This document shows, one piece after another, positions 968-59,110 of a stretch of 64,000 nucleotides of DNA. The stretch's first letter is position 1; each line of letters opens with the position of its first letter. The notes beneath the pieces are model-generated. The model did no database searches. It saw nothing but the letters and a program-made list of their open reading frames with translations, and had not been told where the DNA came from. This stretch comes from an uncultured virus (IMG/VR IMGVR_UViG_3300022885_000008) (Duplodnaviria > Heunggongvirae > Uroviricota > Caudoviricetes): IMG/VR virus record IMGVR_UViG_3300022885_000008. One strand, 5' to 3'. The position numbers and the translations under genes were made by a program.

Positions 968-1088
968 ATAATTGACATCTTTTTGACGGTGTATTAACTA
1001 GTATACTTACCATCCTCCACAAAAGCGGTTACTTTTACTACACTAATCGCTAAATTAATGTGATGACTAAAAGCACGTAACAAAATTG

Positions 1089-1162
1089 AGCTCCATATCC
1101 GATTCGAACGGATGACCTGCTCATTACAAGTGAGCTGCTCTAGCCAACTGAGCTAATGGAGC
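1089..1162 (-). tRNA. tRNA-Thr(TGT)
   Basis: GCTCA-CTTGTAA-TGAGC anticodon arm; complete cloverleaf. Confidence 0.95.
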
Positions 1163-3702: not shown

Positions 3703-3716
3703 CCCTTTGCCAAACT

Positions 3717-4370: not shown

Positions 4371-4407
4371 GCATATAAATATACATTAGGTACAAAAAAC
4401 GTTCCAG

Positions 4408-4633: not shown

Positions 4634-4711
4634 TGCTACCGACTGGATTTGAACCAGTATTTTCAACCAGTTACCTTTATTCTACTTATCAGGTAGAGGG
4701 GATACGGTAGC
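4634..4711 (-). tRNA. D-arm-less tRNA-Ile(GAT)-like RNA
   Basis: Perfect acceptor GCTACCG/CGGTAGC, TCTAC-CTGATAA-GTAGA, ACTGG-TTCAAAT-CCAGT; only 7 nt where the D arm should be. Confidence 0.75.
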
Positions 4712-4726
4712 ATCAAGCTATTCAAT

Positions 4727-4781
4727 ATGTCAAAGAACCATCAACAGTACTAAGATAAGTAAAATTGATTGGAATCACAAA
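4727..4781 (-). promoter_or_regulatory. promoter plus boxA-like element (GTTCTTTGACAT)
   Basis: TTTG-N20-TATCTTAG followed by an rrn boxA-like 12-mer at 4727-4738. Confidence 0.65.
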
Positions 4782-4825
4782 CTATTAACGTTAAATAATT
4801 GTTAATAATGTGTGATTCATAAAAG

Positions 4826-4900
4826 CGGCTCGGACGGGATTCGAACCCGTGTCCTTCGCAGAGACAGTGCGCTATCCTTGACCAACTAGACCACCGAGCC
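4826..4900 (-). tRNA. tRNA-Asp(GTC)
   Basis: GCGCA-CTGTCTC-TGCGA arm, G73. Confidence 0.9.
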
Positions 4901-4906
4901 AATGTG

Positions 4907-4974
4907 TATTTAAAGAACAATGTTACGTGTACTGTAACAGTACTAAGATACTAATTTTTTACCGAATTTACAAA
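4907..4974 (-). promoter_or_regulatory. promoter plus boxA-like element (GTTCTTTAAATA)
   Basis: TTTG-N20-TATCTTAG with a boxA-like motif at 4907-4918. Confidence 0.65.
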
Positions 4975-4992
4975 TATTTTTGAAGTTTTTAC

Positions 4993-5025
4993 AAAAAAAA
5001 ATGGGAAGTTCTATTGAACCTCCCA
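4993..5025 (-). terminator. intrinsic terminator
   Basis: TGGGAGGTTC-AATA-GAACTTCCCA followed by a T-run. Confidence 0.85.
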
Positions 5026-5055
5026 CTTGGAATATAATTATATTATAAGCGGAGG

Positions 5056-5187
5056 TTATGTGGCCAATTCCTTTGTATCAAACACATTATTAGTGTTTAA
5101 ATTGGCGCGGGTCGGTTGGATTGGTTCCGTTCTATACGGGCCAGCAATCGCTTCGAGTCTACCTAGTTTATAATTTGTTGCTTTCAT
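5056..5187 (-). CDS. 43-aa ORF, possible leader peptide
   Basis: MKATNYKLGRLEAIAGPYRTEPIQPTRANLNTNNVFDTKELAT* directly before the terminator. Confidence 0.45.
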   Translation of the reverse strand: MKATNYKLGRLEAIAGPYRTEPIQPTRANLNTNNVFDTKELAT

Positions 5188-5220
5188 CTGTTATAAGTAT
5201 ATCGGTTTATTAAAACCGTG

Positions 5221-5291
5221 TTGCCCGCTTCGGGGTCGAACCGAATTAACAAGTCTTATGAGAACCTGTCCTTTTCCACTAAGCCGAGCAG
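5221..5291 (-). tRNA. atypical tRNA(CAT), Met or Ile2; possibly degenerate
   Basis: Loop CTCATAA, T arm TTCGG-TTCGACC-CCGAA, truncated D arm. Confidence 0.55.
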
Positions 5292-5294
5292 TGT

Positions 5295-5747
5295 TTATTT
5301 TTGTCTAGCGGCCCGTTTTCTTTGTTCTCTAATAAGAGCCGCTTCTTTTATTTTCTTTCTTGTTTCTGCGCTAGGTGATCCCCATTTTTTACCTGTAGAC
5401 CACTTTCCAATTTTAGCCTTAGTTTCATCTGTATGAGTTTTACCTTTGAAATGAGGTCCGCCTTTGCCGCCAATAGCTGAATTATAATTGGTATCAGTTG
5501 AAATAAAGCTTTCGGTTACAATCTCCATTTCCTTATCATTCATTTCATCTTCTGAATCAAATACAAACAATATGACTTTCTTAAAAGTTTGCCTTCCGTG
5601 TTTCTTAATAGCATTGTTTAAAGCTATACCTGATCCCAAATATGAATCATTTATTTTTTTGGTTTGGTGCTTTCCTATATAAATTTTATTATTTAATAAA
5701 TTTATAGTTTTATAAATGGTATAATATAACTGTGTTTCCTTCCGCAT
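5295..5747 (-). CDS. GIY-YIG homing endonuclease with NUMOD3
   Basis: TIYKT...IYIGKH..YLGSG; HTDETKAKI. Confidence 0.88.
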   Translation of the reverse strand: MRKETQLYYTIYKTINLLNNKIYIGKHQTKKINDSYLGSGIALNNAIKKHGRQTFKKVILFVFDSEDEMNDKEMEIVTESFISTDTNYNSAIGGKGGPHFKGKTHTDETKAKIGKWSTGKKWGSPSAETRKKIKEAALIREQRKRAARQK

Positions 5748-5783
5748 GTATATAAATATACATTGAGTCAGAAAACGATCGGG

Positions 5784-5856
5784 TGGCGGATGAAGGATTC
5801 GAACCTCCGACCTCCGGATTATGAGCCCGGTGAGCTGGCCACTGCTCTAATCCGCG
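5784..5856 (-). tRNA. initiator tRNA-fMet(CAT)
   Basis: CGCGGAT start with 1-72 mismatch, CCGGG-CTCATAA-TCCGG. Confidence 0.9.
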
Positions 5857-5874
5857 ATGTTTATTTTTATTGTA

Positions 5875-6905
5875 ACCTTGAGACTATAGGTTTTACACTG
5901 ATACTTTTGTTACCGTACCCATAAGGTGCTACCCTACAGTTAATAACTTATCCACTAACCCATCGGATTAGTATACCAGCAATACCGCCTTTTTTAAAGT
6001 GTGGCTTTTCACTTGTCATAATGAAACTACTCGACTTTCATCCTTTTCCTGACCTTGCGAGCCATTCATTCCTGCTAAGGAATTAGATGTGGAATTCAAT
6101 CAAATCATATCTGCCTTGCGAGCGTCAATGATTCTGTGTTACTTTTCAGTCACAGAATTAGGTAATTTGTTTTTCATTACCGTAGTGGCCTTTGCGTTTT
6201 GTTTATACTTGCGTATAATAGTGTACGAGTCGAACGTACTACCTTTCGTTTAGAAGACGAATGCTCTACCAAATGAGCTAACTATTGAAGTTATTTAAAT
6301 CCACCGAGATGTGCCACTACGGTCGCTTCATATCTTTTTGGGATACAAAATACAACACACCTCATGCGTTTCGGGCTACCAACCCTACTGTGCCATATTT
6401 CAAGATTAATAGGAATCTTTAACGATTCCGTTTACCTTTTATATTGAATAACCGCTTTTGTACTGGTGGTACTTTAACCGTTATTCTACAACTTGTCTAA
6501 TTTTGAGTTCGAAGATTTAGCGTGACATAGCAGGGTGCTAACCCTTTTGCTCTCACCGTGTGGCACCGAGCTTATCTTTCCCAAAGACTATTATCAATCA
6601 ACTTATTCATATCAACCAGTTTGGATCTGATTGCTGCGCTTGGGAGCGTAGTAAGATGTTGCTTGCTTAAATGAACTTATTGCTAAGCGGAAACGTGTGG
6701 AACTATTTCCTTTCATATTCTTACGAATACATATTCTTTTTTTAGACAATACACCTTATCGGCGGCTATGCCGTTCACGCGTCGATGTATTGCCAAATGG
6801 ATATCAAGCTACCCATATATTTTAAAACTACTTTTTGGAAGCCAAAAGCAACATTATCTATACTTCATCCCAGATTCCAAGTCTGAGCCTATAGTCTTAA
6901 AGACA
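5875..6905 (-). ncRNA. large structured ncRNA, GOLLD/ROOL-like, with embedded tRNA
   Basis: About 1 kb with no ORF; ends pair (5881-5890 with 6888-6897); many GCAA/GNRA hairpins; 11-bp helix 6179-6189/6313-6323; inside a phage tRNA array; family not confirmed. Confidence 0.7.
6215..6287 (-). tRNA. tRNA-Arg(TCT) embedded in the large ncRNA
   Basis: TTCGT-CTTCTAA-ACGAA; GTACG-TTCGACT-CGTAC; C1-A72 mismatch. Confidence 0.82.
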
Positions 6906-6938
6906 TATAAATTACATTTAGTTTAAAATGCTTTCATC

Positions 6939-7013
6939 ATGTTAAAGAACAAGATTCGGAACCTTTTCCGAACCAACAATACTAAGATACGTAATTTTCA
7001 TCGAAATACCAAA
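6939..7013 (-). promoter_or_regulatory. promoter plus boxB-like hairpin plus boxA (GTTCTTTAACAT)
   Basis: TTTG-N20-TATCTTAG; hairpin TTCGGA/TCCGAA at 6955-6972; boxA-like motif at 6939-6950. Confidence 0.7.
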
Positions 7014-7053
7014 TTTCTTTGGACTTTTTTTGAAAAAGTTATCCACATTGTAG

Positions 7054-7128
7054 AGCGGTAGGGTGGATATGAGCCACCGGCCTTCTAGTTGGTAACCAGA
7101 CGCTCTGACCAGACTGAGCTACTACCGC
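7054..7128 (-). tRNA. tRNA-Gly(ACC)
   Basis: TCTGG-TTACCAA-CTAGA; GCG/CGC top pairs and U73; variant T loop CTCATAT. Confidence 0.8.
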
Positions 7129-7134
7129 AAATGT

Positions 7135-7425
7135 TTTATCAAATTAGCCATGTTTCCATGTTACCGATTACGCCACGAGGAGGCTTTGATGTGTAATCGT
7201 CTGGGTTTCGTTGTTACTTGGACCTTATCTATAGTTGATCCTTTCACCGTTGTATGTTATTTTAAATCGCCGTCTGCCTAATACCCTTTACAGGGACGAT
7301 TATAATGTTAATGAATTCTTACGGTATTATTGCCCAGTGTTGGATTCCATACCAACATATCTTCCTAGAAAAGCGTCCTTTAGATGGGTTAACATCGGAT
7401 ATTGGACTAACTGAACACCGTCATC
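7135..7425 (-). ncRNA. candidate structured ncRNA (about 290 nt)
   Basis: ORF-free interval between a promoter and tRNA-Gly with several hairpins. Confidence 0.4.
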
Positions 7426-7431
7426 ATCACC

Positions 7432-7470
7432 AACAATACTAAGATACGCAATTTTCTAACAACTACCAAA
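7432..7470 (-). promoter_or_regulatory. Bacteroidota-type promoter
   Basis: TTTG-N20-TATCTTAG. Confidence 0.75.
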
Positions 7471-7562
7471 TTTTTAATGTTAAGAAACTGTTAAATGTTT
7501 TCATAACCTTTACCGTTCATATTGTAACATATAAGTATATGTAATTTTATAAAACGGGATTG

Positions 7563-7650
7563 GGTGCATAACGAGAATTGAACTCGCGTAATACTTTCGT
7601 ATCCCTGATTCACAGTCAGGTCCGGCTAACCAACATCCGGCTTACACACC
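7563..7650 (-). tRNA. tRNA-His(GTG) with long variable arm
   Basis: CCTGA-CTGTGAA-TCAGG, G-1/C73, extra GATAC-GAAA-GTATT hairpin. Confidence 0.88.
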
Positions 7651-7661
7651 ATATATAAATA

Positions 7662-8099
7662 TTATTTATTTAATAATAAATCTAATTCTTTCATATTTTT
7701 CTTAAGCAACTTATTTAGCCTATCAGATTCCTTTTTAAGCTTTCTGCTTGCTATGTCAATTCGTTTAAGTTCTGCCTGCTTTATTTCGGTCATGTTATTT
7801 TCAAGCCAAGTGTTATATTCAAGTAATTTGGATAAATACTTTAGTCGATCAGATTCATATACTTTTTCCCTTGCAGCGAAATGTTCATCAGGTTCATCGC
7901 CAAGCCAAGCCAATTTCATAATGAAATCACCAAAGCGGTCGGGCACGGCATCGATATATGCGAGATTAGGAACTACGTTATATTCTTTACATTTATCTAT
8001 CAATTCCTGTACAGTACAGTCATATAGGTCAAATGTCATTGATACCTGAGTCCGACGTACAGGCGCAATAGGTTCAATTGGCTTCTTTTTCATTCTCAT
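7662..8099 (-). CDS. hypothetical protein with coiled-coil C-terminus
   Basis: 145-aa ORF. Confidence 0.7.
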   Translation of the reverse strand: MRMKKKPIEPIAPVRRTQVSMTFDLYDCTVQELIDKCKEYNVVPNLAYIDAVPDRFGDFIMKLAWLGDEPDEHFAAREKVYESDRLKYLSKLLEYNTWLENNMTEIKQAELKRIDIASRKLKKESDRLNKLLKKNMKELDLLLNK

Positions 8100-8113
8100 A
8101 ATAACTGTTTGTG

Positions 8114-8187
8114 CACACCCAGAAGGATTCGAACCCTCGTCCCCGGGTTTGGAAGCCGGTATCCTGGACCAACTAGACGATAGATGT
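8114..8187 (-). tRNA. tRNA-Trp(CCA)
   Basis: Loop TTCCAAA, G73, 31-39 mismatch. Confidence 0.8.
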
Positions 8188-8225
8188 GTATTATTTATTA
8201 ATGTTTATATAAGTATAAGTTTATT

Positions 8226-8336
8226 TTGTGTCCAATTACCAGATATAAATACTGATATTGCTGAAACTTGAGTGTCTTTCTGTAGTACCATTATCTAATG
8301 TACCATCGAAGTCAAATGATACCCTTTGTTCGTCAT
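8226..8336 (-). pseudogene. HAD-family remnant
   Basis: VSFDFDGTLD motif out of frame with the upstream ATG, with an early stop. Confidence 0.4.
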
Positions 8337-8412
8337 TAGAAACAAGATACGTAATAATGTTCGTATTTACAAACTTTTCTGAAACTTTAACATATTTTTA
8401 TAATTATAATTG

Positions 8413-8485
8413 AGGCCCGGGCTGGATTCGAACCAGCGTAAATGGATTTGCAGTCCATCACCTATAGCCACTCGGACACCGAGCC
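8413..8485 (-). tRNA. tRNA-Cys(GCA)
   Basis: ATGGA-CTGCAAA-TCCAT, U73. Confidence 0.95.
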
Positions 8486-22622: not shown

Positions 22623-23036
22623 TTAAAGATTTTCATTTGTGTTAAATTTGTAACCCTTGAATTTACCTTTGGTTACGGGTTTCTTTTTTTCAATACTATT
22701 TCGTATAGCAGTAATTGATATTCCTAATGTTTCGGATGCCTCACTAATAGTGGGAAACGTAACTTCGTTTTTATCACCATCTATACATTTTACAGAACAA
22801 CCAACACCATACATAGGGTTATTAATCCCGTGTTTAACTTCACTCATTTTATCAATGGTTTCCTTACGATGTTTTTTACCATACATAGGATGATTTTCAC
22901 CCTTTATAGAATCTGATATACGTTGTTTAACATCGTCATTCCATTTTGTCCCAGTTCTTGATTCCGATATTTTTTTCTTGGCTTCATCAGTATGTGTTTT
23001 ACCATACATTCCATTTTCCTTACCGTGATGTACCAT
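22623..23036 (-). CDS. NUMOD3/NUMOD1 DNA-binding protein (homing endonuclease remnant without nuclease domain)
   Basis: Repeated NxMYGKxH motifs and C-terminal FPTISEAS HTH. Confidence 0.7.
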   Translation of the reverse strand: MVHHGKENGMYGKTHTDEAKKKISESRTGTKWNDDVKQRISDSIKGENHPMYGKKHRKETIDKMSEVKHGINNPMYGVGCSVKCIDGDKNEVTFPTISEASETLGISITAIRNSIEKKKPVTKGKFKGYKFNTNENL

Positions 23037-23038
23037 TT

Positions 23039-23629
23039 TTAATTATTAAAAACATCCATCAACGAAATGTCTGGCCAATCATTAATATCCCATTGGTGAG
23101 GAATTGTTTCTACTGCTTCTGCAAACTTATATATGCCTTCGGCTGCCGTTTCTGGCGTCATATAATAATGATATCCCATCGTATCGATGTTTTGTTCACG
23201 CCAAGGTACATCTGGCAATCTACCGTCATACGACATTTTTTTTAACGCCACTGCTTGATCTATATTATCAGTTAATATCATTCCACCCCGACCTAAACTA
23301 AGATGCTTTCTATATTGAAATGATATACACATTAATGTATTGGGTACATATGTATTTTCACCCCACAAAACTGCTGCATCTATAATATCAGTCGTAATAT
23401 AGTAATAGTCCGACCAAGTACAATCAATCCATTCTAAATCAATTGACAATTTATCTGCTAAAAAAGGTACTGATATGTATGTCCTGCGGGGAGATTGCAT
23501 TTTATCGGCCTTAGTATATCTTAGGCATAATTCCAATCCATGTGTACACGAATCTACTGCTACACCGTACTTAGCACCAAAATAACTGGCTACTATATCT
23601 TCGAAGGATGTTATTGTATTAAAGCTCAT
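23039..23629 (-). CDS. short DegT/DnrJ/EryC1-family aminotransferase
   Basis: VAVDSCT, IDAA, SFQYRKHL...GGMILT. Confidence 0.85.
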   Translation of the reverse strand: MSFNTITSFEDIVASYFGAKYGVAVDSCTHGLELCLRYTKADKMQSPRRTYISVPFLADKLSIDLEWIDCTWSDYYYITTDIIDAAVLWGENTYVPNTLMCISFQYRKHLSLGRGGMILTDNIDQAVALKKMSYDGRLPDVPWREQNIDTMGYHYYMTPETAAEGIYKFAEAVETIPHQWDINDWPDISLMDVFNN

Positions 23630-35531: not shown

Positions 35532-37181
<1,650 letters not shown>

Positions 37182-37191
37182 TTATTTTCTT

Positions 37192-37560
37192 TTAAATGTG
37201 CGCGCTGTTGCGGTCTGTCGGAGGCATTGGTGGAGGTGAAGGGTAGTCTGAACTCGATTTGTTTTTCGGTCCTGTTCTGTTTATAATAGACAATAAATCA
37301 GATTCTTGGACTGCCATCAATCCGTCTGTATCTTCCATTACTTTCGCAGATAATTTAGTATACAATACGATATCACCCACAATACACTGCATGTCACCTC
37401 TGGCACCAGACAGTAATAATAATCCAGGACCCACAGCAACTACTTCAGCTGTGTTTACACCTTCATCATTTGTTTCTGGTACTATTACTCCACCGGATGT
37501 AATGTCTTGTTTGGTGGGCTTTATTATTACCCGGCCACCAATGGGAAAAAACTGCTTCAT
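37192..37560 (-). CDS. groS: co-chaperonin GroES
   Basis: P.GGRVII, TSGGVIVP, VVAVGPG. Confidence 0.92.
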   Translation of the reverse strand: MKQFFPIGGRVIIKPTKQDITSGGVIVPETNDEGVNTAEVVAVGPGLLLLSGARGDMQCIVGDIVLYTKLSAKVMEDTDGLMAVQESDLLSIINRTGPKNKSSSDYPSPPPMPPTDRNSAHI

Positions 37561-39531: not shown

Positions 39532-40755
39532 TTATCGACCAACTTCACTTAAATATTTAGATTTCATTTCGTCCCATGAGATACCAACTGCATCAATGTA
39601 ATACAAATGGTCTGGCTTAAGCCTTCCTTCTGTATGTAGCTTAGTATAACGTCTAATTGCTTTAGGTTTCCACCAATTATTAATGTAATCAATACCCTCT
39701 ACAAACTTCTTTTTCATAACAAGTTCGTCTTCGGATATTTTTCCACATAAAAAGTCATTGCCATTATCATATATAAATGCTCCGTAACAACCACGTTTGA
39801 ACCCGTGCTGATACTTAGACTGTGATATTTTACATTCGGAAAATATTTTACTAATTATTTTCTGTTTGATTCCACTTACTGGGCCGCTGCGTGTATTGTC
39901 ACCTTCTTCTATAGGGAGACCATCTTTACCACGTTCTTCTGTCACATTTATTTCATACCATTGAGTACGGTTTTCTTTTATCCATTGGTGCCACGGAGTA
40001 TAAATTGAATCATCCGGCTTAATACTAATTTTCCCGGCGGATTCACCCAAAGTTTTGAAATGGGGAATAGCGTTATACTGTGAATGAATACCGTATAATG
40101 ATGTTGTACCTACTGCTACAAGTGTCTGACCATACGATGATTTCCAATAATCCCTAACATCAGGGGTTGTTGTCATCGTTGCTATCAATTTTCCACCTAA
40201 GAAATTATAACCAAGTGGCTGTGTACATACAATGGTAGATGCTATACTTGTGTGGTTTAGTTTTCCGGCGGCAAATTTATCTTGTAAAGTCCACCCAATA
40301 TATTTATCACGTACAGCAAGAGAAGTTATATCCGATGCCATTGATACTTGACCTAATAACTTACCACTTACCCTATCCTTTATATTCAATTTGACATTTC
40401 GTCCTGGGTTAGGAGTCCAACTCATAGTATGAATCATACGGCGTATGTGGCTCCACTTAGTAGATTCCTTTTCCGTTGTTACTATTTCAACGTAAGGGTC
40501 CAAGTTTTCTATTTCTCTTACCGTCAAATCATAATCATATATATCGGTGGGATTCCACTGATTATCATATAGCTCTGCCAGTAGCGATTTATTTTTAATC
40601 ACGGCTGGATCTTGAAGTTCAACCCATTTTTTATATAGGGTTTGTTCTTCCACAGTCATACTTGCCAACGTATCTAAGTTCTGAATTAAATTCTGCTTTT
40701 CTTTTGTAAAATCAAATTCATCATCAGGTACTTCGCTGTCCCAAAATGGATTCAT
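39532..40755 (-). CDS. DUF4338/DruA-like protein
   Basis: PGRN, RDKYIGW, PLGYNFLGGKL, TTSLYG. Confidence 0.7.
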   Translation of the reverse strand: MNPFWDSEVPDDEFDFTKEKQNLIQNLDTLASMTVEEQTLYKKWVELQDPAVIKNKSLLAELYDNQWNPTDIYDYDLTVREIENLDPYVEIVTTEKESTKWSHIRRMIHTMSWTPNPGRNVKLNIKDRVSGKLLGQVSMASDITSLAVRDKYIGWTLQDKFAAGKLNHTSIASTIVCTQPLGYNFLGGKLIATMTTTPDVRDYWKSSYGQTLVAVGTTSLYGIHSQYNAIPHFKTLGESAGKISIKPDDSIYTPWHQWIKENRTQWYEINVTEERGKDGLPIEEGDNTRSGPVSGIKQKIISKIFSECKISQSKYQHGFKRGCYGAFIYDNGNDFLCGKISEDELVMKKKFVEGIDYINNWWKPKAIRRYTKLHTEGRLKPDHLYYIDAVGISWDEMKSKYLSEVGR

Positions 40756-41520: not shown

Positions 41521-42425
41521 TTAAAATGAAAAGAATTGTGATGCGGTTTCCAAATTTTCATTTGGTAGTTCCCATCCAAGTGACGTATAGAATTGTTCCA
41601 ACTTCTTACCGATTTCACTATTCCATATCTGATCATAATCAATGTATGTATTGATTATATTTAGGATTTCATCGGAATCTTTGTAGCCTGTGAAGGCAAC
41701 TGATTCCAATCCAAGATTATTATGTAGTAAATATACCCACTTGATTTTATCACCGTCCTTAATCGGTTCATACTTAGTAGTAAGATTATAATGTGTAAGT
41801 AGTTGATTATGGGCTATACATGATTTGACGTGAGCAGGTGTACCTTTGGTAAACGCACCTAATAATTGGTCTTTATAAGTGTATTTACTTATACCCTTTA
41901 CACCTGAATTACGTCCCAATGATGTAATCGGTTGGTTAGATATATCTTTTCTGTATGCCAGAATTTTGTTATCCACTGCCACCTTATTTTCAACTTTAAG
42001 TATGTCCATCAGTACCTCAGACATAATAGTTTTGAAGTATGGTGGAAATGATGACCTACGTACATCTAGCCCCTTTACATCAAGTTTATCACAGTTAACC
42101 CCCTTATCATTAATAATCCACTGAGCATATCGTTTCTTTGCAACCCAGAATGCGCTCTTAGCAATTGTTTCTTGTTTGATATTAAATCGATGTGATTCAA
42201 TATTAAACATTCGAGTGGCCATAACATCATATGTCGAGTTAATATGATTTTGAATTTCACCTGCTACTGATAGAATGGCAGGTATCATTTGATCATCATT
42301 GTTTTCATCAATATCTGGATTACGTGTTTTTACAAGCGGCGTTGATTCGTAGAATACTGAGTCAGTTAAGTGTCCACGTAAATGTTATAATCTACGTGGA
42401 CTTTTTCAATTTTTTTGATTTTCAT
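41521..42425 (-). CDS. polB: family B DNA polymerase, C-terminal part; interrupted by a stop/frame change at 42364-42371
   Basis: MKIKKIEKVHVDYNIYVDT* (42366-42425) then TDSVFY...KKRYA...VKGLDVRRS in another frame. Confidence 0.85.
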
Positions 42426-43090
42426 AAATAATAATAAATTCACACCCTAGATGGGTTGTTATTTCGTTTTGTCTTATTTTATCCTTTTCAATTCGATTAG
42501 TATGGAATGATTCGTAATATTCAATTACGATATTTTTTTCCTTACTATATCCATCAACCCAGTAGCCAAGTTCTTTAATATAAAATTCTCCGCCATTTTC
42601 GGCGTGTTGGAGGTCTACTATATCAAGTTCTTTTGCTTTGGCCTCAATGATGGAAATTGATGATGGATTATAGTTTGGAGAAATACCATGCTTGGATATC
42701 AATTCGTCAATTCTCTTTAATCTTAGTTTCCTAACACTTTTGGGATTATCCATCGGATTCTTACCAACCGAAGTCCAATACTTATATCGTATTTTCTTCA
42801 TCGCGGCGGTTGCATTTTTCTTCCAAGTCGGGTGTTTATTTCTAGTTTCTATCATTGAATCAATACTATCCTTGCTATGTCGTTTTCCTTTAAATGGATT
42901 TTTATCACCACGAACATCAGCGTGATTCTTACTTAGACTTTCTTTATGTTTATCACTAAATAATTTACCTGTCTTAGAACAACTCAAACATTTCTTATTT
43001 TCAGCTATAGCTTTTTCATGAAACCATTTAGTTTTAATTGTTATTTCGATGCCGCAAGTGGGACAATTTCGTACATATTTTCATCATCAT
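42406..43090 (-). CDS. NUMOD3 plus Vsr/PD-(D/E)XK-like homing endonuclease; one extra A after the ATG
   Basis: RNCPTC...CLSC, NPFKGKRHS, YWVDGY...IEYYESFH...D..RQ. Confidence 0.75.
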
Positions 43091-43136
43091 ATCTCCTATA
43101 ATAAGTATATGATTATTCAACTTTCTGTATGGAGTA

Positions 43137-45080
43137 CTAGACAACAATATCATCATCTTCCGTTAATTCACCAACTTGCTTCTTACTACCATCCATTAAC
43201 GTAACAAATTCATTTACACCAAATATTAATTCTTTGCCATTTTCTAGTGTGAGTTTATGTGGATTTATGTGTTCATTGTAGTATGCGTTGGCAATCTTTT
43301 CCGTAGTTTTAATAATGGTTTGACCACACTCTGTAACAGCTGCAGCATTATCAAGGTCATAAAATCTGAACGTGGCAAGCCCAAGACAGCCATATAAACT
43401 ATTAAGCATGATTTTTTGGGTATGCTGCCTTCTATCGTAGAATTTATACAAATCGGTGGCTCCGGCCTTACCGTGTGATTTCATTAACTTTGTATATTCT
43501 GTTCGTTTTTTAAACCAAACATCTAAGATTTCTGCAATGACACCAACTTTATCCTGTCTATACAATACACCATTGGATGATACCGAATAGTTAGATTCTG
43601 ATAATAGCTCTTGGAATTTAGCTTTGTTAATAGCAGGATAATAGTCGCCGTGACTATCTTCAATAATGTATTCATCTATTTCATCGGATATATATCGTTC
43701 CGTAGTGAAATTATGAACCTTGCCCATCTTAGTTTCTGGACTAATATTTAGGCTCATAATAATACTTGGATACAATGATGTTAAGTCCAAGTCATATACC
43801 CATTTATATAATCCGGTAATAGGTTCCTTTACATATGCTCCTACAAAATCAAGTGCCACCTTATAATCAGTACCAGCTTCTTTTTCTAGTGGCTTTGATA
43901 ATGTAAATGTTGATCCATCATATGAATCATACGATACAATAATATAGCTGGATGTAGATTTACTTATTTTTAATCGGCCTGTTCCAGGTACGTTTGTCAG
44001 TATGTTAGATTCCATATTAAGCTTCGTGGTTCCAACGGGATGCTTTCTACTTAATACTAATGACAAACGGGGTGGTGAATTTGTTGCAATTCTATTATTC
44101 CGTCTAAGGAATGTTAATATAGCACCTTCCAGCCATTTAGATGAAAAAAGAAAATCTTCATATTGAGTGTGACCGGCATGAGTAATTGAACGAGCAAGGT
44201 CAATGAATTGTAGCTTACGGTCCATATCTACCACAAGTTCAACGTCTACCAAGTTATATTCTACAAACGTTTCAATGTCATCTCTGAATAGTTCATCTAG
44301 GCTTCCAACGTATTCTATTTTACCCCTACCCAATACTTCCTTTGCAATAGTATCCAATCGATAATTTGCTAGTTCACTATATGTGAAGTTTTTATATAGA
44401 GCAAGATAATCAAGGGATGATACACCTGCTATTAAATAACGGCCGCGTCTTTCATTCCAATCAACTATACCAATCGGTGACAACCTATTAGCAACACCTT
44501 CCGAAAATACAGTCTTGATTCTGTTATAGAGATATGTAATATCAAAATAATCTATGTTCCACCCAGTTATAATGGTGGGATTTATTTGTTCCCATTTATT
44601 AAGGAATGCAAGTAGTAAGCTATCTTCATCTGGAAAAGATTGTACAATGGCTTTCTTAATCTTCTTATCTATTGATAAATCTGATATCACATATACATAA
44701 TAATCATCTGTTGTAGAATCATGTAGCGCTATTGATGTGATTGCATTATCAGCATCAGTTAAGTCAGGTAACCCCGTTACCATTTCAACTTCAATATCAA
44801 ACGTAACTACAGTATGGCCGGTGGAAATTTCATCACTGTCACCATACGTATCAATTAAGAAACGAATGATTGGATTTATATCGCTTTCGTGTAATTTACT
44901 AGTGGTATATTTATCCCATTCTCCAATTTTCCTTAATTTCTCCCCATAGATAGATTCAAATGCTCCATTAGCATCCGGTACATATGCATACTTATGGTAT
45001 TTTTCTTGCTTGTAACCAAGCTCGTCATCCCAATAATGTATAGTATTGGTCTTCCTATCAAAGTGCACATTCTGATACAT
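43137..45080 (-). CDS. polB: family B DNA polymerase, N-terminal part (3'-5' exonuclease, motifs A and B)
   Basis: FDIE, GWNIDYFD, YNLVD, DLTSLYPSII, KIMLNSLYG. Confidence 0.95.
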   Translation of the reverse strand: MYQNVHFDRKTNTIHYWDDELGYKQEKYHKYAYVPDANGAFESIYGEKLRKIGEWDKYTTSKLHESDINPIIRFLIDTYGDSDEISTGHTVVTFDIEVEMVTGLPDLTDADNAITSIALHDSTTDDYYVYVISDLSIDKKIKKAIVQSFPDEDSLLLAFLNKWEQINPTIITGWNIDYFDITYLYNRIKTVFSEGVANRLSPIGIVDWNERRGRYLIAGVSSLDYLALYKNFTYSELANYRLDTIAKEVLGRGKIEYVGSLDELFRDDIETFVEYNLVDVELVVDMDRKLQFIDLARSITHAGHTQYEDFLFSSKWLEGAILTFLRRNNRIATNSPPRLSLVLSRKHPVGTTKLNMESNILTNVPGTGRLKISKSTSSYIIVSYDSYDGSTFTLSKPLEKEAGTDYKVALDFVGAYVKEPITGLYKWVYDLDLTSLYPSIIMSLNISPETKMGKVHNFTTERYISDEIDEYIIEDSHGDYYPAINKAKFQELLSESNYSVSSNGVLYRQDKVGVIAEILDVWFKKRTEYTKLMKSHGKAGATDLYKFYDRRQHTQKIMLNSLYGCLGLATFRFYDLDNAAAVTECGQTIIKTTEKIANAYYNEHINPHKLTLENGKELIFGVNEFVTLMDGSKKQVGELTEDDDIVV

Positions 45081-46530: not shown

Positions 46531-47322
46531 TTACCAAAAATTTAACGAACTTTTTTCATACGATGTATAATGGTGGTGTATTTCATTCATAAACACATCA
46601 CTATTTTTAGGATAATCCTTTTCAGGATGTTTAAGTAATTGCTTAAGATTCTTTTTGGACCGGGGATTACCTATTAACTGAATATATCTATGCTTGGACG
46701 CTTCTATACGTCTCCAAAATTCAGTTATATTTTGCTTACCAATTTCGCGTCTCAGATGGTCCACGTTACTAGATCCCCACTTAGAAAATACAGTTCTACT
46801 GTGAATCCACTTATACGGATTTTTTTGTAGTGACAATTCATAATTGGGCATTAATGCCAAATCTGTATTGGTTCCCTGGTATATCCAATTTGTAGCCTGA
46901 TATATCCTACCTAAATGAGCTTGGCTGGCATCCGCATAGGATATCAGCGCTTTAATATCAGGGTCATTTTCCTTAATCCACTTGAATGTTTTACCAAGTG
47001 CATATGATTCTATATTTGACCCGTATCCATCATGTATATACAGTCGGGTCAATTCCAACACAGAATCTATCGCCAGTGTGTCTGAGACGCTCGCTGCCGC
47101 TGATCGACCAACAGGATTACCGTAGATAGCGCAGCCAATTAATACATCGTCTCCGAACGTATCAGAGCTACTATCGACGTAATATATACCAATAGCGTAC
47201 TTACATGAAGACCATGAATGTGTGTAATGATATTTTACAATCATTTTTTTGGCTACCACAGCATTTATTTTTTTAATAAACACTTTTGATGTATCACAGT
47301 AATGTTTTCCTTCTTCTTTCAT
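46531..47322 (-). CDS. Mom-like GNAT protein
   Basis: HY, LELTRL, ISYAD...HLG.IYQATNW.Y.G, KHRY. Confidence 0.8.
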   Translation of the reverse strand: MKEEGKHYCDTSKVFIKKINAVVAKKMIVKYHYTHSWSSCKYAIGIYYVDSSSDTFGDDVLIGCAIYGNPVGRSAAASVSDTLAIDSVLELTRLYIHDGYGSNIESYALGKTFKWIKENDPDIKALISYADASQAHLGRIYQATNWIYQGTNTDLALMPNYELSLQKNPYKWIHSRTVFSKWGSSNVDHLRREIGKQNITEFWRRIEASKHRYIQLIGNPRSKKNLKQLLKHPEKDYPKNSDVFMNEIHHHYTSYEKSSLNFW

Positions 47323-47909
47323 GATATATCGTATGTAAATATGTGCTTTGGTTTTGTATCAATTAACACAACACCTTCATCTTTTTCTTTATATCTTCTA
47401 TTGATTTCGACGCCATACGGTCTATCTAACATTGACAATGTACGAACATGAAATTTCTTTCCGTCTACCAGTAATGATTTGCCAGTAGAAGTCAATCCCA
47501 AATATTTGAAATTTGATGCTCTATAAATTACACCTGTGTGGCCTTGTTCGCCGTCTGCATATGATATGACAAATTTCCAATTTGAATTTTTCTTTAACCA
47601 CTTTAACGTCCGACTTACAAAAAATGATTCGGCGTTTTTAGGAGTGTCATCTATACAGCATAACCTACGTAGTTCTAAAACTGCCATCGGATTATCTGGA
47701 TAATATTTTGCTCCTGCTGCTGCACCAGCCGGCCTAGTGTAAACACAGACACCGACAATTTCGGGAATATTAAATTTTCCAGGGCGTAGTAAGCAGAACG
47801 TATGTTTGTGTTGAATATTAACGTAATCGGAATAATGCCAACACCTCATAAATGTACGAATCGATTTATTAAACGAAGTGTGTTCTACCCAATATGATTG
47901 TAATGCCAT
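47319..47909 (-). CDS. Mom-like GNAT protein
   Basis: HY, LELRRL, ISYAD..QGHTG.IYRASNF.Y.G, KH. Confidence 0.8.
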   Translation of the reverse strand: MALQSYWVEHTSFNKSIRTFMRCWHYSDYVNIQHKHTFCLLRPGKFNIPEIVGVCVYTRPAGAAAGAKYYPDNPMAVLELRRLCCIDDTPKNAESFFVSRTLKWLKKNSNWKFVISYADGEQGHTGVIYRASNFKYLGLTSTGKSLLVDGKKFHVRTLSMLDRPYGVEINRRYKEKDEGVVLIDTKPKHIFTYDIS

Positions 47910-47910
47910 T

Positions 47911-48576
47911 TTAAAAAAACTTGTTTATATACGATTCACGTACAATATTATCTCCGGCATCATATCTACTATTTTGCCCCTTTGGATACGGTAACACATC
48001 ATATTTTTCCATTAATTCTTTTCTTAATTTCTTTTTTTGATGCTTATTTCCCGTCACCTGAAAGTATCTATGTTTGCCTTCTTGTTCTTTGAATGTAATT
48101 GTATATCCCATACCAATCAGCGCGGGTATAGATGATGTACCGTATCTGGCAAATATTGTCCTACGGTGAGTTTCTTCACCATTGACATATATTATCTTTT
48201 CTTTTGATGACATACCGGTATACATCCAATTAGTTGCTTGGTATATATATCCGTGATGACCCCAATTCTGATCAGCATACGATACAACATGCGGGTCTTT
48301 AATTAGATTCAGGCATCCGGCTAAAAAGAACGAGGTAATGTTTTTTTGATTTAATTCGTTTGTAACCAGCCTACTTAATTCGTATGGTGAATCTTCTAAA
48401 TCAAATCTAGCGATGGCTGGAGAGAAAACACAAACTCCTTCAATGTGATTATTTATAAAAAGACCGAAAGATTTCGATATAGTTGGCATTCTTTTTAGAT
48501 AATGTTTATCCAAAAGCCAATCAGTACATACCGATTGTTTTATGCTAACTATATTAACGTTCTTAGTATCTATCAT
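47911..48576 (-). CDS. Mom-like GNAT protein
   Basis: HYL, YELSRL, VSYAD...GHHGYIYQATNW.YTG, KHRY. Confidence 0.8.
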   Translation of the reverse strand: MIDTKNVNIVSIKQSVCTDWLLDKHYLKRMPTISKSFGLFINNHIEGVCVFSPAIARFDLEDSPYELSRLVTNELNQKNITSFFLAGCLNLIKDPHVVSYADQNWGHHGYIYQATNWMYTGMSSKEKIIYVNGEETHRRTIFARYGTSSIPALIGMGYTITFKEQEGKHRYFQVTGNKHQKKKLRKELMEKYDVLPYPKGQNSRYDAGDNIVRESYINKFF

Positions 48577-58081: not shown

Positions 58082-59110
58082 TCAATTGTCTGCCTTCATA
58101 TAGCCATAATGATTTCCTACACTACATCGCGATGGGAATTGCAATTTTGACTTAATAAGTTCTTTGATATAAATATCAGTCTTTTTCGTATCAAAGAGAA
58201 ATGAATCATACGTATACAATACTAATTTGGATTCTAACGGAGATAATATATCAAATAATTCAGTCAAAATCAACACATTCATTTCGGTTTCATATGCCTG
58301 GATGAGATAGTTGAATAGTTTTCGTGGATTCATGTCATCAAAATTATCACCACTTAATCTACGTTCTGCAATCGGTGTTTCAATATACCCGTTCGATATG
58401 TACGATACCCATAGACGTTCAATATATTCATCGATTAACTTAAAAAAGGTTACGTTACTATATTCATCGGCAATTCCACCATATAACATTGTAAATGATA
58501 TTGATTTGGATTGCTTATATTCATCATCAGTTATATCGTCCTTATCATAGTATAACTTAGCCATGTGTGTATGAAAACTATCATCGGGTGCATCATATTC
58601 AATAAGAGTGGATATCAAACGTAAGTGATATGCATCGTAATCAAATTCAATAAGCTTTCCACCTTCAAACCTGGATTTAAATCTAGTTCGTGACCCATCA
58701 TCTTTATTTAAAGCGGCGTAATTTACCCCTCCGTTGGAATTGGATGGGCGGCCGGTTTTTGTATATATGTTATAATGAGTATGCTCATATCCATCTGGAG
58801 TATATAATCCAGAGTCTTCTATCTTTCTAAAATATGGAATTAACTTATTTTTGTAAAATAACCACGGCGTTGAAGTAGTAAGATTGTCATCAGCTATGGT
58901 AGAATAATAGCTCTGTAGTAGTGTGAGACGCTCCCTGTGCTTACATAAAGGTATAATCATGTCTACATCGGTTCGCTTCCAATACAACCGTTTGTAGAAC
59001 GAATGAGCATCGGTTTCAATAGTATCAACGTCAAAGGCACTATTATATTTCAGATAATGAGTTAACTGTATATCGTCACATATAGATCGTATTTCGCTGA
59101 TGACTCCCAT
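58082..59110 (-). CDS. family A DNA polymerase-like protein (polymerase domain only)
   Basis: TGRPSN, EFDYDAYHLRL (motif A), K...F..LYG (B), NYLIQ, YTYDS (C). Confidence 0.8.
   Translation of the reverse strand: MGVISEIRSICDDIQLTHYLKYNSAFDVDTIETDAHSFYKRLYWKRTDVDMIIPLCKHRERLTLLQSYYSTIADDNLTTSTPWLFYKNKLIPYFRKIEDSGLYTPDGYEHTHYNIYTKTGRPSNSNGGVNYAALNKDDGSRTRFKSRFEGGKLIEFDYDAYHLRLISTLIEYDAPDDSFHTHMAKLYYDKDDITDDEYKQSKSISFTMLYGGIADEYSNVTFFKLIDEYIERLWVSYISNGYIETPIAERRLSGDNFDDMNPRKLFNYLIQAYETEMNVLILTELFDILSPLESKLVLYTYDSFLFDTKKTDIYIKELIKSKLQFPSRCSVGNHYGYMKADN

What the first reader, a model, noticed from the sequence alone, without database searches (positions are those of the whole stretch)
42355..42425. 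Catalytic YxDTDS motif of the replicative polymerase is broken by ACU-UA-ACU: candidate 5-nt programmed ribosomal bypass
Seen: the minus strand reads TAC GTG GAC ACT TAA CT GAC TCA GTA TTC. The short ORF MKIKKIEKVHVDYNIYVDT stops at TAA (42366-42368). A second ACT (42364-42366) overlapping that stop opens the frame TDSVFY..., which runs to the end of the polymerase. An 11-bp hairpin (GTCCACGTAGA/TTTACGTGGAC) ends at the codon just before the first ACT. Established: family B polymerases need YxDTDS, and T4 gene 60 bypassing uses matched take-off and landing codons, a stop codon and a stem-loop. Inference: peptidyl-tRNA-Thr hopping from ACU to ACU (+5 nt) restores exactly YVDTDS. A simple -1 shift would insert residues into the motif, and starting at the downstream ATG (42288) would lose the catalytic Asp. 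This could be a recoding switch on phage replication.
Basis: partly seen in the sequence, partly recalled or inferred. Interest (0 to 1): 0.88.

Follow-up and report, generated by a model that had tools for sequence, protein, structure and literature searches.

The report
Five-base ribosome hop in phage polymerase
An uncultured T4-like phage, like many of its relatives, carries a mobile nuclease cassette that splits its DNA polymerase gene and leaves five extra bases, starting with a stop codon, inside the catalytic DTDS motif; ribosomes most likely hop over them, a miniature of the famous phage T4 gene 60 bypass.

Summary
On the minus strand the PolB motif reads TAC GTG GAC ACT|TAACT|GAC TCA, preceded by a 12-bp hairpin. 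It is not an assembly error or a one-off. With the five inserted bases left free, pattern scans found 45 loci, which give 26 distinct sequence contexts. All 26 have a Thr take-off codon, then a stop (TAA 13, TGA 11, TAG 2), then C. The landing triplet is ACN in 24 and GCU in 2. A covarying hairpin ends at the take-off codon in every variant and is absent from uninterrupted relatives. The downstream polymerase part is under strong purifying selection (dN/dS 0.04-0.14).

The gap belongs to a roughly 1.1-kb mobile cassette: a C-terminal extension, a homing endonuclease (sometimes swapped or lost), an N-terminal extension MKIKxI.., a recoded copy of the replaced codons, and the gap. This parallels the T4 MobA/gene 60 element. 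The C-terminal extension is related to intein N-fragments and to the T4 gp39 tail.

Best reading (about 0.78): a programmed +5 stop-hop by peptidyl-tRNA-Thr. No experiment supports it yet, and my literature searches found no description of it. This scan's earlier AI notes reached the same reading on near-identical DNA from another assembly.

The parts
43254..45080 (-). PolB N-terminal part (exonuclease, palm motif A, fingers motif B), native sequence up to ..AYYNEHINPHK
   Evidence: Pfam DNA_pol_B 5.4e-28 and DNA_pol_B_exo1 1.8e-21. It aligns to the uninterrupted Mel-JY01 PolB up to residue 605.
43137..43253 (-). C-terminal extension (CTE) LTLENGKELIFGVNEFVTLMDGSKKQVGELTEDDDIVV plus its stop; an intein-derived tail brought by the cassette
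   Evidence: Conserved in 16 distinct elements (A3). The profile hits the Pab PolC intein 2lcj at E 2.8e-6 and the T4 gp39 tail by hhalign at prob 84%, E 7e-6.
42406..43080 (-). Homing-endonuclease-like ORF (zinc-ribbon-like CxxC pairs, weak NUMOD3, C-terminal HAENGGE..VDGY..IEYYE nuclease-like domain). Its likely SD (43097-43093) and ATG run (43090-43082) are +1 out of frame with the ORF body.
   Evidence: The C-terminal domain is shared with the endonuclease ORFs of 8 other elements (A4). There are weak DUF559 matches in 6 of 9 members, all below the curated cut-off.
42402..42425 (-). Start of the downstream cistron: unique part of the N-terminal extension, MKIKKIEK
   Evidence: M1 K2 I3 I6 are invariant in 15 elements (A5). 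The pattern ATGAAAATHAARNNNATH occurs once in the window.
42372..42401 (-). 12-bp hairpin (5' arm 42401-42390, loop 42389-42384, 3' arm 42383-42372). It encodes VHVDYNIYVD; the 3' arm is the recoded copy of the native IYVD codons.
   Evidence: z = -5.39. In alignment A2, 97% of cells are paired against 18-43% when the partners are slid, and 5 of 12 pairs change on both sides. The hairpin is absent from 36 uninterrupted contexts.
42369..42371 (-). Take-off codon ACT (Thr of DTDS)
   Evidence: ACN in 26 of 26 contexts. My pattern fixed AC here, and the codon encodes the motif's Thr.
42364..42368 (-). The 5-nt coding gap TAACT: stop TAA (42368-42366) and landing triplet ACT (42366-42364)
   Evidence: With these 5 bases left free in the pattern, 26 of 26 contexts start with a stop and have C at base 4. 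The landing triplet is ACN in 24 and GCT in 2.
41521..42363 (-). PolB C-terminal part, resuming at GAC (Asp of DTDS): DSVFYESTPLV... to the stop
   Evidence: Pfam DNA_pol_B 3.6e-9. 47% identical to Mel-JY01 PolB over 281 aa. dN/dS is 0.04-0.14 in pairs of gap-bearing relatives.
1088..1162 (-). Phage-encoded tRNA-Thr(UGU), a possible hopping tRNA (association only)
   Evidence: ARAGORN. It has an ordinary 7-nt anticodon loop CTTGTAA.

Best explanation
The window's family-B replicative polymerase gene carries a roughly 1.1-kb mobile homing-endonuclease cassette that replaced about 22 native codons just upstream of and across the YxDTDS motif. The cassette splits the gene into two cistrons.

The first cistron ends in a cassette-encoded, intein-derived tail (CTE). 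The second starts with a cassette-encoded head (MKIKKIEK), followed by a recoded copy of the replaced codons (VHVDYNIYVDT). Five extra bases (TAACT) then sit between the Thr and second Asp codons of DTDS.

To make a polymerase with an intact catalytic motif, the ribosome decodes ACU (Thr) and meets UAA followed by C in the A site. That C would be a poor termination context in E. coli, which is recalled knowledge and not tested here. The peptidyl-tRNA-Thr lets go of ACU, the mRNA slips 5 nt, and the tRNA re-pairs with the ACU that overlaps the stop. Decoding resumes at GAC UCA, giving ...DYNIYVDTDSVFYE...

The 12-bp stem that ends at the base before the take-off codon would be held open inside the ribosome at that moment. 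Its refolding behind the ribosome would supply a forward pull.

Shown here: the anatomy, its conservation, the hairpin covariation, the mobility of the cassette and the purifying selection on the downstream part. Inferred: the hop itself, the role of the hairpin, and the reason for the gap. That reason is presumed to be disruption of the endonuclease's target in an invariant motif so that the cassette is immune to its own nuclease, as shown for T4 MobA/gene 60.
For: (1) Recurrence without forcing. The pattern RTHTAYRYNGAYACNNNNNNGAYTCNRTNTWYT leaves the five inserted bases free. It found 15 loci in viral contigs, 32 in metagenome contigs and 1 in genome contigs. Some contigs occur in both of the first two collections. 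Three of the 48 are chance matches outside PolB (L114, L121, L144), and none of those has a stop. The other 45 loci give 26 distinct contexts. Stops are TAA 13, TGA 11, TAG 2. The base after the stop is C in 26 of 26. The landing triplet is ACN in 24, and GCT in the two TAG cases, which allows G.U at the first position.

(2) Unconditioned sample. Of the 80 best relatives of the C part, 8 carry the gap, all 8 with the cassette. 71 read YxDTDS uninterrupted. Of those, 65 have at least 206 codons open upstream, 5 are cut by a contig end and 1 (L071) has another break. One locus (L032) is unreadable at the site.

(3) Frames. Y-x-D-T is kept in frame 0 with synonymous changes (GAC/GAT, ACT/ACC/ACG/ACA, TAC/TAT). 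D-S-[VI]-[FY] is kept in the +2 frame. No -1 or +2 re-pairing site exists.

(4) Hairpin. All 22 distinct variants fold, with MFE -11.6 to -27.6 kcal/mol. The stem ends at the last base before take-off in 19 and one base earlier in 3. On A2, 97% of cells pair against 18-43% when slid, 5 of 12 pairs change on both sides, and the covariation score is 0.394 against 0.223 shuffled (0 of 500). In 36 uninterrupted contexts the mean MFE is -6.1, against -19.8 here.

(5) The C part is functional. dN/dS is 0.063 (L054/L077, dS 0.46), 0.039 (L099/L133), 0.10 (L111/L112) and 0.08-0.14 in deeper pairs.

(6) Mobility. The gap-bearing state is scattered on the C-part tree, with at least 6 changes, at least 3 of them forced by well-supported branches. 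L055 and L079 (without) are 864/900 and 782/800 identical in the flanks, while 67 native nt are replaced by 1079 nt.

(7) Architecture matches the MobA/gene 60 element as described in bioRxiv 10.1101/2022.08.31.505936 (sections 4, 12, 16, 19 read): CTE, endonuclease, NTE, homologous replacement region, gap at an invariant catalytic residue, endonuclease swapped or lost. Here the gap between the CTE stop and the NTE ATG is 711-983 nt in 9 elements, 457-484 in 2, 177 in 1 and -11 to 29 in 4. Endonuclease kinds differ: L027 is GIY-YIG/NUMOD3 (phrog_314, 1.3e-37).

(8) CTE homology to the T4 gp39 tail (hhalign prob 84%, E 7e-6).
Against: - No protein, ribosome-profiling or RNA data exist; no listed run is on record as RNA.
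[quoted passage not shown] Some pairs (ACC to ACA, ACG to ACC) are not read by one standard tRNA-Thr isoacceptor, so re-pairing would rest on two base pairs.
- A stop codon in the A site invites termination, and efficiency is unknown.
- The conserved hairpin could act at the DNA level (endonuclease target or recombination) or on mRNA stability rather than on the ribosome.
- Homology of the NTE to the T4 gp60 N-terminus is not shown (7 columns, prob 2.4%).
- The window's own endonuclease ORF seems frameshifted at its start, so a present-day need for immunity is doubtful in this phage.
- My pattern fixed the flanks, so variants with other flanks or other gap lengths were not sampled.
Confidence: 0.78

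Rival explanations
1. The gap is never crossed. The polymerase works as a multi-piece complex in which the 19-35-residue peptide (ending YxDT) and a C part started by some non-canonical initiation at or after the landing triplet assemble non-covalently with the N part.
For: Split family-B polymerases are known: Aeromonas phage gp43 and M. thermautotrophicus PolB, as cited in PMC2677866 (passages read). The cassette supplies extensions that could hold pieces together. The short ORF is conserved as protein.
Against: No ATG, GTG or TTG exists in the +2 frame between its upstream stop and the first downstream Met; there are 6 open codons in the window and 6-15 in relatives. This model gives no reason for an invariant C after the stop or for a Thr-like landing triplet. 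Cutting the DTD hairpin between T and D would split the two catalytic carboxylates onto separate chains.
Confidence: 0.08
2. The five bases are removed or ignored by another route, such as RNA-level excision or editing, or a specialised tRNA that reads an extended codon, rather than by P-site tRNA re-pairing.
For: The conserved hairpin directly 5' of the site could be a recognition element for an RNA-processing activity. The phage encodes 15 tRNAs and a CCA-adding-type enzyme.
Against: No group I intron or other Rfam family matches 42200-43500; the best E-value is 3.8 and all matches are far below gathering scores. Five nt is far below any known intron. The phage tRNA-Thr(UGU) has an ordinary 7-nt anticodon loop. 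The stop plus Thr-like landing pattern is exactly what re-pairing needs.
Confidence: 0.08
3. Inactivation or artefact: the gap is a sequencing or assembly error, or the polymerase is a decaying pseudogene tolerated because another polymerase serves the phage.
For: The window has a weak PolA-palm-like ORF at 58082-59110, scoring 33.9 bits against a cut-off of 34.3. The cassette's own endonuclease looks frameshifted.
Against: There are 26 distinct contexts from many assemblies with the same design. Logan contigs of two runs agree base for base. dN/dS of the C part is 0.04-0.14 within gap-bearing clades. The hairpin shows compensatory changes.
Confidence: 0.02

Closest known systems
Phage T4 gene 60 translational bypass within the MobA homing-endonuclease element (Bonocora et al. 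2011, recalled and cited in the preprint; Manning & Atkins, bioRxiv 10.1101/2022.08.31.505936, sections 4, 12, 16, 19 read)
   Same: - A mobile cassette of about 1.1 kb replaces about 55-75 nt of an essential enzyme gene and splits it; here 1079 nt replace 67 nt.
- It adds a conserved CTE and NTE and a recoded homologous region.
- It places an untranslated gap at an invariant catalytic residue, with a stop right after take-off and a like codon for landing.
- The endonuclease is swapped (GIY-YIG, Vsr-like) or lost while the gap stays.
- The CTE is related to the T4 gp39 tail.
   Different: - The target is PolB motif C, not the topoisomerase Toprim domain.
- The gap is 5 nt, against 50 nt in T4 and 20 nt for the shortest in the preprint.
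- There is no take-off stem-loop, no internal SD and no AU-rich tract.
- The conserved structure is a covarying 5' hairpin abutting the take-off codon, whereas the preprint finds the gene 60 5' stem-loop not conserved.
- The hopping tRNA would be Thr, not Gly or Asp.
- The third codon base is unconstrained.
Synthetic 'stop-hops' in E. coli (+5/+6 hops over a stop between matched codons; Weiss et al. 1987, O'Connor et al. 1989, as cited in PMC5009743, passages read, and in the preprint's reference list)
   Same: The same elementary event: the P-site peptidyl-tRNA leaves its codon when a stop sits in the A site and re-pairs a few bases downstream.
   Different: Those were low-efficiency events in artificial constructs with no dedicated stimulators. 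Here the site sits in an essential gene, is conserved across divergent phages and is flanked by a selected hairpin.
Mitochondrial bypass elements of Magnusiomyces capitatus (as summarised in PMC5009743, passages read)
   Same: Short inserts in essential genes are skipped during translation. Take-off and landing are often matched in only two of three bases.
   Different: Those are many context-independent inserts read by a relaxed mitochondrial system with an unused codon in the A site. Here there is a single site with a stop, a dedicated hairpin and linkage to an endonuclease cassette.
Fractured genes: split inteins with a free-standing homing endonuclease between the halves (Dassa et al. 2009, PMC2677866, passages read)
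   Same: An essential replication gene is broken in two with an endonuclease gene between the parts. The tail of the first part is homologous to intein N-fragments. A true split-intein N-fragment that starts at the Ser of YGDTDS exists in another PolB (P0116).
   Different: The splicing residues are missing: no N-terminal Cys/Ser, no block-B His, no C-terminal His-Asn. The two parts therefore cannot be ligated. The catalytic motif is restored by decoding, not by protein splicing.
Split gp43 polymerases of Aeromonas T4-like phages (Petrov, Karam and co-workers, as cited in PMC2677866, passages read)
   Same: A family-B replicative polymerase of a T4-like phage is encoded as two cistrons, in one case with a GIY-YIG endonuclease gene between them.
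   Different: From what I read and recall, no coding gap inside the catalytic motif was reported there. I did not examine those genomes.

Membership tests
Programmed translational bypassing (gene 60 kind) | Take-off codon and a like landing codon that flank untranslated bases | tested here: met
   Take-off is ACN. The landing triplet is ACN in 24 of 26 contexts and GCU in 2, with the gap bases left free in the search. The two codons are identical in 7 of 26.
Programmed translational bypassing (gene 60 kind) | [quoted passage not shown] | tested here: met
   A stop in 26 of 26 contexts (TAA 13, TGA 11, TAG 2), always followed by C.
Programmed translational bypassing (gene 60 kind) | [quoted passage not shown] | tested here: not met
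   The stem ends before the take-off codon, and a 5-nt gap has no room for either element. A different, covarying 5' hairpin is present instead.
Programmed translational bypassing (gene 60 kind) | Nascent-peptide stimulator | tested here: inconclusive
   The MKIKxI[KR][KR] head is invariant at M1 K2 I3 I6. Its distance to the P site varies from 19 to about 30 or more residues, and it could equally serve docking or initiation.
Programmed translational bypassing (gene 60 kind) | One polypeptide made from the two frames | not testable with these tools
   This needs a reporter assay or mass spectrometry. No RNA run is listed.
MobA / gene 60 mobile element | Inserted in the topoisomerase II large-subunit gene and carrying an HNH MobA endonuclease | tested here: not met
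   The host gene is PolB. The endonucleases are a DUF559/Vsr-like kind (weak) or GIY-YIG.
MobA / gene 60 mobile element | Homologous CTE and NTE extensions | tested here: inconclusive
   CTE against the T4 gp39 tail: hhalign prob 84%, E 7e-6 over 39 columns. NTE against the T4 gp60 head: 7 columns, prob 2.4%.
Split intein (fractured gene) | Hint-fold homology of the extension | tested here: met
   The CTE profile hits the Pab PolC intein 2lcj at E 2.8e-6 and 9hth at 0.0055. Of 65 library proteins that carry the match at their C-terminus, 43 have Pfam intein/Hint hits.
Split intein (fractured gene) | Catalytic residues: N-terminal Cys/Ser, block-B Thr-x-x-His, C-terminal His-Asn before a Ser/Thr/Cys | tested here: not met
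   There is no conserved Cys/Ser at the PolB-CTE junction. A conserved Asn stands where 2lcj has Asp-His. The NTE has no His-Asn. The CTE covers only the second half of an intein N-fragment.
Group I intron with endonuclease ORF | Match to the intron covariance model, with exon junctions that restore the frame | tested here: not met
   No Intron_gpI match in 42200-43500 at E up to 10. One intron could not remove both the 0.9-kb insert and the 5 nt.
-1 / +1 programmed frameshift | Slippery site that allows re-pairing in an overlapping frame | tested here: not met
   Read directly from the sequence: from ACN, the -1 triplet is CAC or similar and the +2 triplet is NTA or NTG. A shift elsewhere in the 6-15-codon overlap would destroy YxD.

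The most novel reading that the evidence does not exclude
Gene 60 is not a lone oddity. It would be one derived member of a broad class of endonuclease cassettes descended from 'fractured' split-intein genes. These cassettes would keep dead intein halves as a docking clasp for the two enzyme pieces. They would protect themselves by planting a tiny untranslatable gap in an invariant catalytic motif, which the ribosome crosses by a hairpin-driven micro-hop. The 12-bp stem, whose length roughly equals the distance from the P site to the mRNA exit, would act as a loaded spring. That would give a minimal, roughly 55-nt, portable bypass signal. The same design may sit unnoticed in split RNR, PolA and DnaE genes, whose N-fragments end in the same tail without detectable intein signatures.
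Probability: 0.4. Interest if true: 0.92.

Novelty: new variant of a known kind. Interest (0 to 1): 0.86.

Why it matters
Efficient natural translational bypassing has rested almost entirely on one case, T4 gene 60 and its topoisomerase homologues. The 2016 review (PMC5009743, passages read) notes that shorter counterparts were long expected but not found.

This site would be a second gene family, in the replicative polymerase and inside its catalytic DTDS motif. It offers 20 or more natural sequence variants and a much simpler signal: a hairpin, a Thr codon, a stop, and C plus one more base. Four consequences follow.

- It gives a compact system to test whether refolding of mRNA behind the ribosome drives forward sliding.
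- It shows how selfish nucleases can colonise sequences that cannot tolerate any amino-acid change.
- It links such cassettes to dead split inteins.
- It warns that gene callers will report these polymerases as truncated or broken.

Tried and rejected
- **Group I intron:** Rfam on 42200-43500 at E up to 10 gave 5 chance-level matches and no intron.
- **Close isolates:** megablast of the polymerase region against GenBank phages found nothing. The best protein match is Microcystis phage Mel-JY01 at 47%, with an uninterrupted PolB. tblastn of an element endonuclease found only partial matches in Lak phages and one uncultured phage. No cultured carrier was found.
- **Genome contigs pattern scan:** 1 match, a chance hit outside PolB.
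- **Window's own assembly:** not held. G001 is 100% identical over 3601 bases and is probably the same virus record.
- **Sequencing runs:** no RNA holder listed. Runs X4 and X5 do not cover the site.
- **Naming the endonuclease:** the PDB sequence search found nothing. Pfam gave only sub-threshold NUMOD3 and DUF559. PHROGs found nothing for the window's ORF.
- **NTE homology:** no significant match to the T4 gp60 head or to PDB chains.
- **CTE-based locus search:** A single CTE found only 6 close relatives, none informative on cassettes without a gap.
- **More with/without pairs:** L137, L027 and L046 against their nearest gap-free relatives were too diverged (about 80% flank identity) to fix boundaries.
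- **Small 3' stem:** a stem formed by the landing codon and the Asp-Ser-Val codons was considered. Its only free pair does not covary across the variants (read by eye), so it was dropped.
- **Literature:** five full-text searches and reading of four papers found no description of a PolB coding gap. Subscription journals and the preprints' supplements were not seen.
Full report
**1. What is in the window**

On the minus strand the family-B polymerase is in pieces.
- An N part of 647 aa lies at 45080-43137. Pfam gives DNA_pol_B 5.4e-28 and the exonuclease domain 1.8e-21.
- A 193-223-aa endonuclease-like ORF lies at 43080-42406.
- A 19-codon ORF, MKIKKIEKVHVDYNIYVDT, runs from ATG 42425 to TAA 42368-42366.
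- Two bases further on, the frame DSVFYE... runs to 41521 (DNA_pol_B 3.6e-9).

Against the uninterrupted PolB of Microcystis phage Mel-JY01, the N part aligns up to ..AYYNEHI. The C part aligns from TDSVF.. onward. The hairpin is 12 bp, 42401-42390 with 42383-42372, and it ends at the base before the take-off ACT. The 71-nt stretch folds at -19.1 kcal/mol, z = -5.39 against 200 shuffles.

**2. Not an artefact**

- Logan contigs of two runs span 42000-43300 with no difference at depth 15-18. These runs may be the source samples, and two further runs do not cover the site.
- More tellingly, the same design recurs in other viruses. Among the 80 best viral-contig relatives of the C part (58-65% identity; 224 relatives were found), 8 have a 5-nt insert at exactly this place, 71 read YxDTDS without interruption and 1 cannot be read there.
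- A pattern that fixes only the flanks and the take-off AC, and leaves the five inserted bases free, found 15 viral contigs, 32 metagenome contigs and 1 genome contig. Several contigs occur in both of the first two collections.
- Three of these matches lie outside any polymerase gene and carry no stop (L114, L121, L144).
- The other 45 loci give 26 distinct contexts. All have a stop right after the Thr codon (TAA 13, TGA 11, TAG 2). All have C next. The triplet that ends the insert is ACN in 24 and GCT in the two TAG cases.
- Take-off is ACT 9, ACG 9, ACC 7, ACA 1. Take-off and landing are identical in 7 of 26, and the third bases look unrelated.

**3. The frames**

Up to the stop, frame 0 keeps Y-x-D-T with synonymous variation. 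After the gap, the +2 frame keeps D-S-V/I-F/Y. The +2 frame is open for only 6-15 codons upstream and holds no start codon. From ACN there is no cognate triplet at -1 or +2. The only place where a tRNA-Thr can re-pair is +5. That reading alone gives YxDTDS.

**4. The hairpin is selected**

- All 22 distinct variants of the short ORF fold into a hairpin, with MFE -11.6 to -27.6 kcal/mol.
- The basal stem ends at the last base before the take-off codon in 19 and one base earlier in 3.
- Longer variants carry extra paired sequence at the tip, not at the base.
- On 13 sequences with the 30-nt form (11 distinct), 97% of cells pair against 18-43% when partners are slid. Five of 12 pairs change on both sides. 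The covariation score of 0.394 exceeds all 500 shuffles.
- The 5' arm is cassette sequence. In 36 uninterrupted contexts the same region folds at a mean of -6.1 kcal/mol (best -10.8), against a mean of -19.8 here.

**5. The downstream part is a working gene**

Within gap-bearing clades, dN/dS of the C part is:
- 0.063 for L054/L077 (dS 0.46);
- 0.039 for L099/L133;
- 0.10 for L111/L112;
- 0.08-0.14 for deeper pairs, where dS is saturated and the ratios are rough.

**6. A mobile cassette**

- Every gap-bearing locus with enough upstream sequence has the same layout: the PolB N part runs into a conserved tail of about 40 aa (CTE); an endonuclease ORF or its remains follows; the second cistron then starts MKIKxI[KR][KR].. 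(NTE; M1 K2 I3 I6 invariant).
- The distance from the CTE stop to the NTE ATG is 711-983 nt in 9 distinct elements, 457-484 in 2, 177 in 1, and -11 to 29 in 4. So the endonuclease has been lost four times or more while tail, head, hairpin and gap stay.
- Endonuclease kinds differ. Most share the window's C-terminal domain (A4), which gives only weak DUF559 matches. L027 has a GIY-YIG/NUMOD3 enzyme.
- On a tree of 68 C parts (18 with the gap, 50 without), the gap-bearing state needs at least 6 changes, at least 3 of them on well-supported branches. The gap-free rows were sampled around the window's protein only, so deep gap-bearing lineages lack sampled gap-free neighbours.
- One clean with/without pair fixes the element. 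L055 and L079 are 864/900 identical upstream and 782/800 downstream, and 67 native nt are replaced by 1079 nt.
- The element starts after ..ANQYY. It ends about 21 nt beyond the gap, reading TDSVFYE where the native sequence reads TDSVYFS.

**7. Comparison with T4**

The MobA element of T4 and its relatives is described in Manning & Atkins (bioRxiv 2022, sections 4, 12, 16, 19 read).
- It is 1097-1106 nt long and replaces 55-75 nt.
- It adds a CTE and an NTE with a homologous replacement region.
- It puts the bypass at an invariant catalytic residue.
- It keeps the bypass when the endonuclease is lost, and it has exchanged MobA for GIY-YIG or VSR enzymes.
- It is protected from its own nuclease by the insert, a result the preprint attributes to Bonocora et al. 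2011.

The PolB element matches all of these architectural points. Its CTE profile aligns with the T4 gp39 tail (hhalign prob 84%, E 7e-6, 39 columns). The NTE comparison is uninformative.

The differences are the host gene, the 5-nt gap (the shortest in the preprint is 20 nt), the lack of a take-off stem-loop and SD, and the conserved 5' hairpin. The preprint finds the gene 60 5' stem-loop not conserved.

**8. Origin of the tail**

- The CTE profile hits the block-B region of the Pab PolC intein (2lcj, E 2.8e-6) and another polymerase intein chain (9hth, 0.0055).
- Against 1.84 billion representatives it finds 238 proteins at E up to 0.001.
- Of the best 150, I took the 65 that are at least 150 aa long and carry the match within 12 residues of their C-terminus. 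By Pfam they are N-fragments of:
  - PolB: 13
  - ribonucleotide reductase: 11
  - UvsW-type helicase: 10
  - PolA: 5
  - DnaE: 4
  - terminase, portal, an AAA ATPase and a subtilase: 1 each
  - intein-only pieces: 16
  - unassigned: 2
- 43 of the 65 have intein/Hint hits. 10 of the 13 PolB fragments do not.
- P0116 is a PolB fragment in which a full intein N-fragment starts at the Ser of YGDTDS.
- The CTE therefore looks like the second half of a split-intein N-fragment that has lost its catalytic residues. There is no junction Cys/Ser, and Asn stands in place of the block-B Asp-His.
- I infer that it now serves as a docking piece. The complex prediction meant to test this never ran.

**9. 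Mechanism proposed**

The ribosome starts at ATG 42425, melts the hairpin and places ACU in the P site, with UAA-C in the A site. At that point the 12 basal stem bases lie between the P site and the mRNA exit. This is an inference from the usual ribosome footprint. Their partners are already outside.

Slow termination would let the stem begin to re-form and draw the mRNA forward. The slow-termination point rests on recalled E. coli data for a C after the stop. Peptidyl-tRNA-Thr then re-pairs with AC(N) five bases on, and GAC is decoded next. The idea that pairing of exiting mRNA drives forward bypassing is argued for gene 60 by Wills, Parsawar & Atkins (bioRxiv 2024; only the abstract and outline were read).

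The phage encodes an ordinary tRNA-Thr(UGU), which could read several ACN codons. This is an association only.

**10. What is not known**

- There are no RNA or protein data.
- Efficiency is unknown.
- Whether the hairpin acts on the ribosome, on DNA or on the nuclease is unknown.
- Whether the gap confers immunity is unknown.
- The window's own endonuclease seems to need a +1 shift at an A run to join its SD-ATG to its body, so it may be decaying.
- Cassettes with other gap lengths or flanks were not sampled by my patterns.

**11. Prior knowledge**

Five literature searches and the papers read found no PolB coding gap. The 2016 review states that natural bypass cases are few.

This scan's own earlier AI notes reached the same reading on near-identical DNA in another assembly (e1-5783290). 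They also reported 4-9-nt gaps behind endonuclease genes in other phages (e1-5879515 and e1-5956807). Those notes are not independent evidence. I re-derived the points above from my own calls.

Noticed in passing
window 43078-43097 (-): The cassette's endonuclease has a good SD (AGGAG) and ATGATGATG followed by AAAA, but these are +1 out of frame with the ORF body (KYVRNCPTCG..). The homologue in L118 starts MSEKVYKRNCPKCD in one frame. This is either a decaying gene or a +1 slip at the A run.
   Followed up: partly
window ~43860-44115 (-), PolB N part residues ~322-407: There is a 60-85-aa insert relative to Mel-JY01 PolB, between the exonuclease and palm regions. L046 has a similar insert and L054 does not. 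Its nature is unknown.
   Followed up: no
window 39532-40755 (-): A 407-aa ORF matches the Druantia DruA family (PF14236, 2.5e-14). It sits in the replication module next to the ORF in the sliding-clamp position.
   Followed up: no
window 892-8485 (-): A cluster of 15 tRNA genes with ORFs of about 130-270 aa between them. One of these ORFs is GIY-YIG (3717-4370).
   Followed up: no
window 22623-23629 (-): A NUMOD3-only ORF (3e-24) lies directly downstream of a 196-aa DegT-like ORF that matches only profile positions 165-241 of 360. This may be another endonuclease-associated gene truncation.
   Followed up: partly
window 46531-48576 (-): Three tandem Mom-family paralogues (PF25680; 8e-44, 6e-32, 2e-25), suggesting elaborate DNA modification.
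   Followed up: no
window 58082-59110 (-): A 342-aa ORF has a PolA palm match just under the Pfam cut-off (33.9 against 34.3 bits). It may be a second polymerase-like gene.
   Followed up: no
L071:1349-3060: In a gap-free relative the PolB reading frame is broken by a simple frameshift about 86 codons upstream of DTDS. This is either a sequencing error or another recoding site.
   Followed up: no
P0036, P0041, P0050, P0073, P0077, P0086, P0110, P0112, P0137, P0141: N-fragments of PolA, DnaE and ribonucleotide reductase end in the same tail but show no Pfam intein hit. They are candidates for the same clasp-plus-gap design in other genes.
   Followed up: no
window 35532-37560 (-): The phage encodes a GroEL/GroES pair (Cpn60 2.8e-64, Cpn10 2.8e-14).
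   Followed up: no
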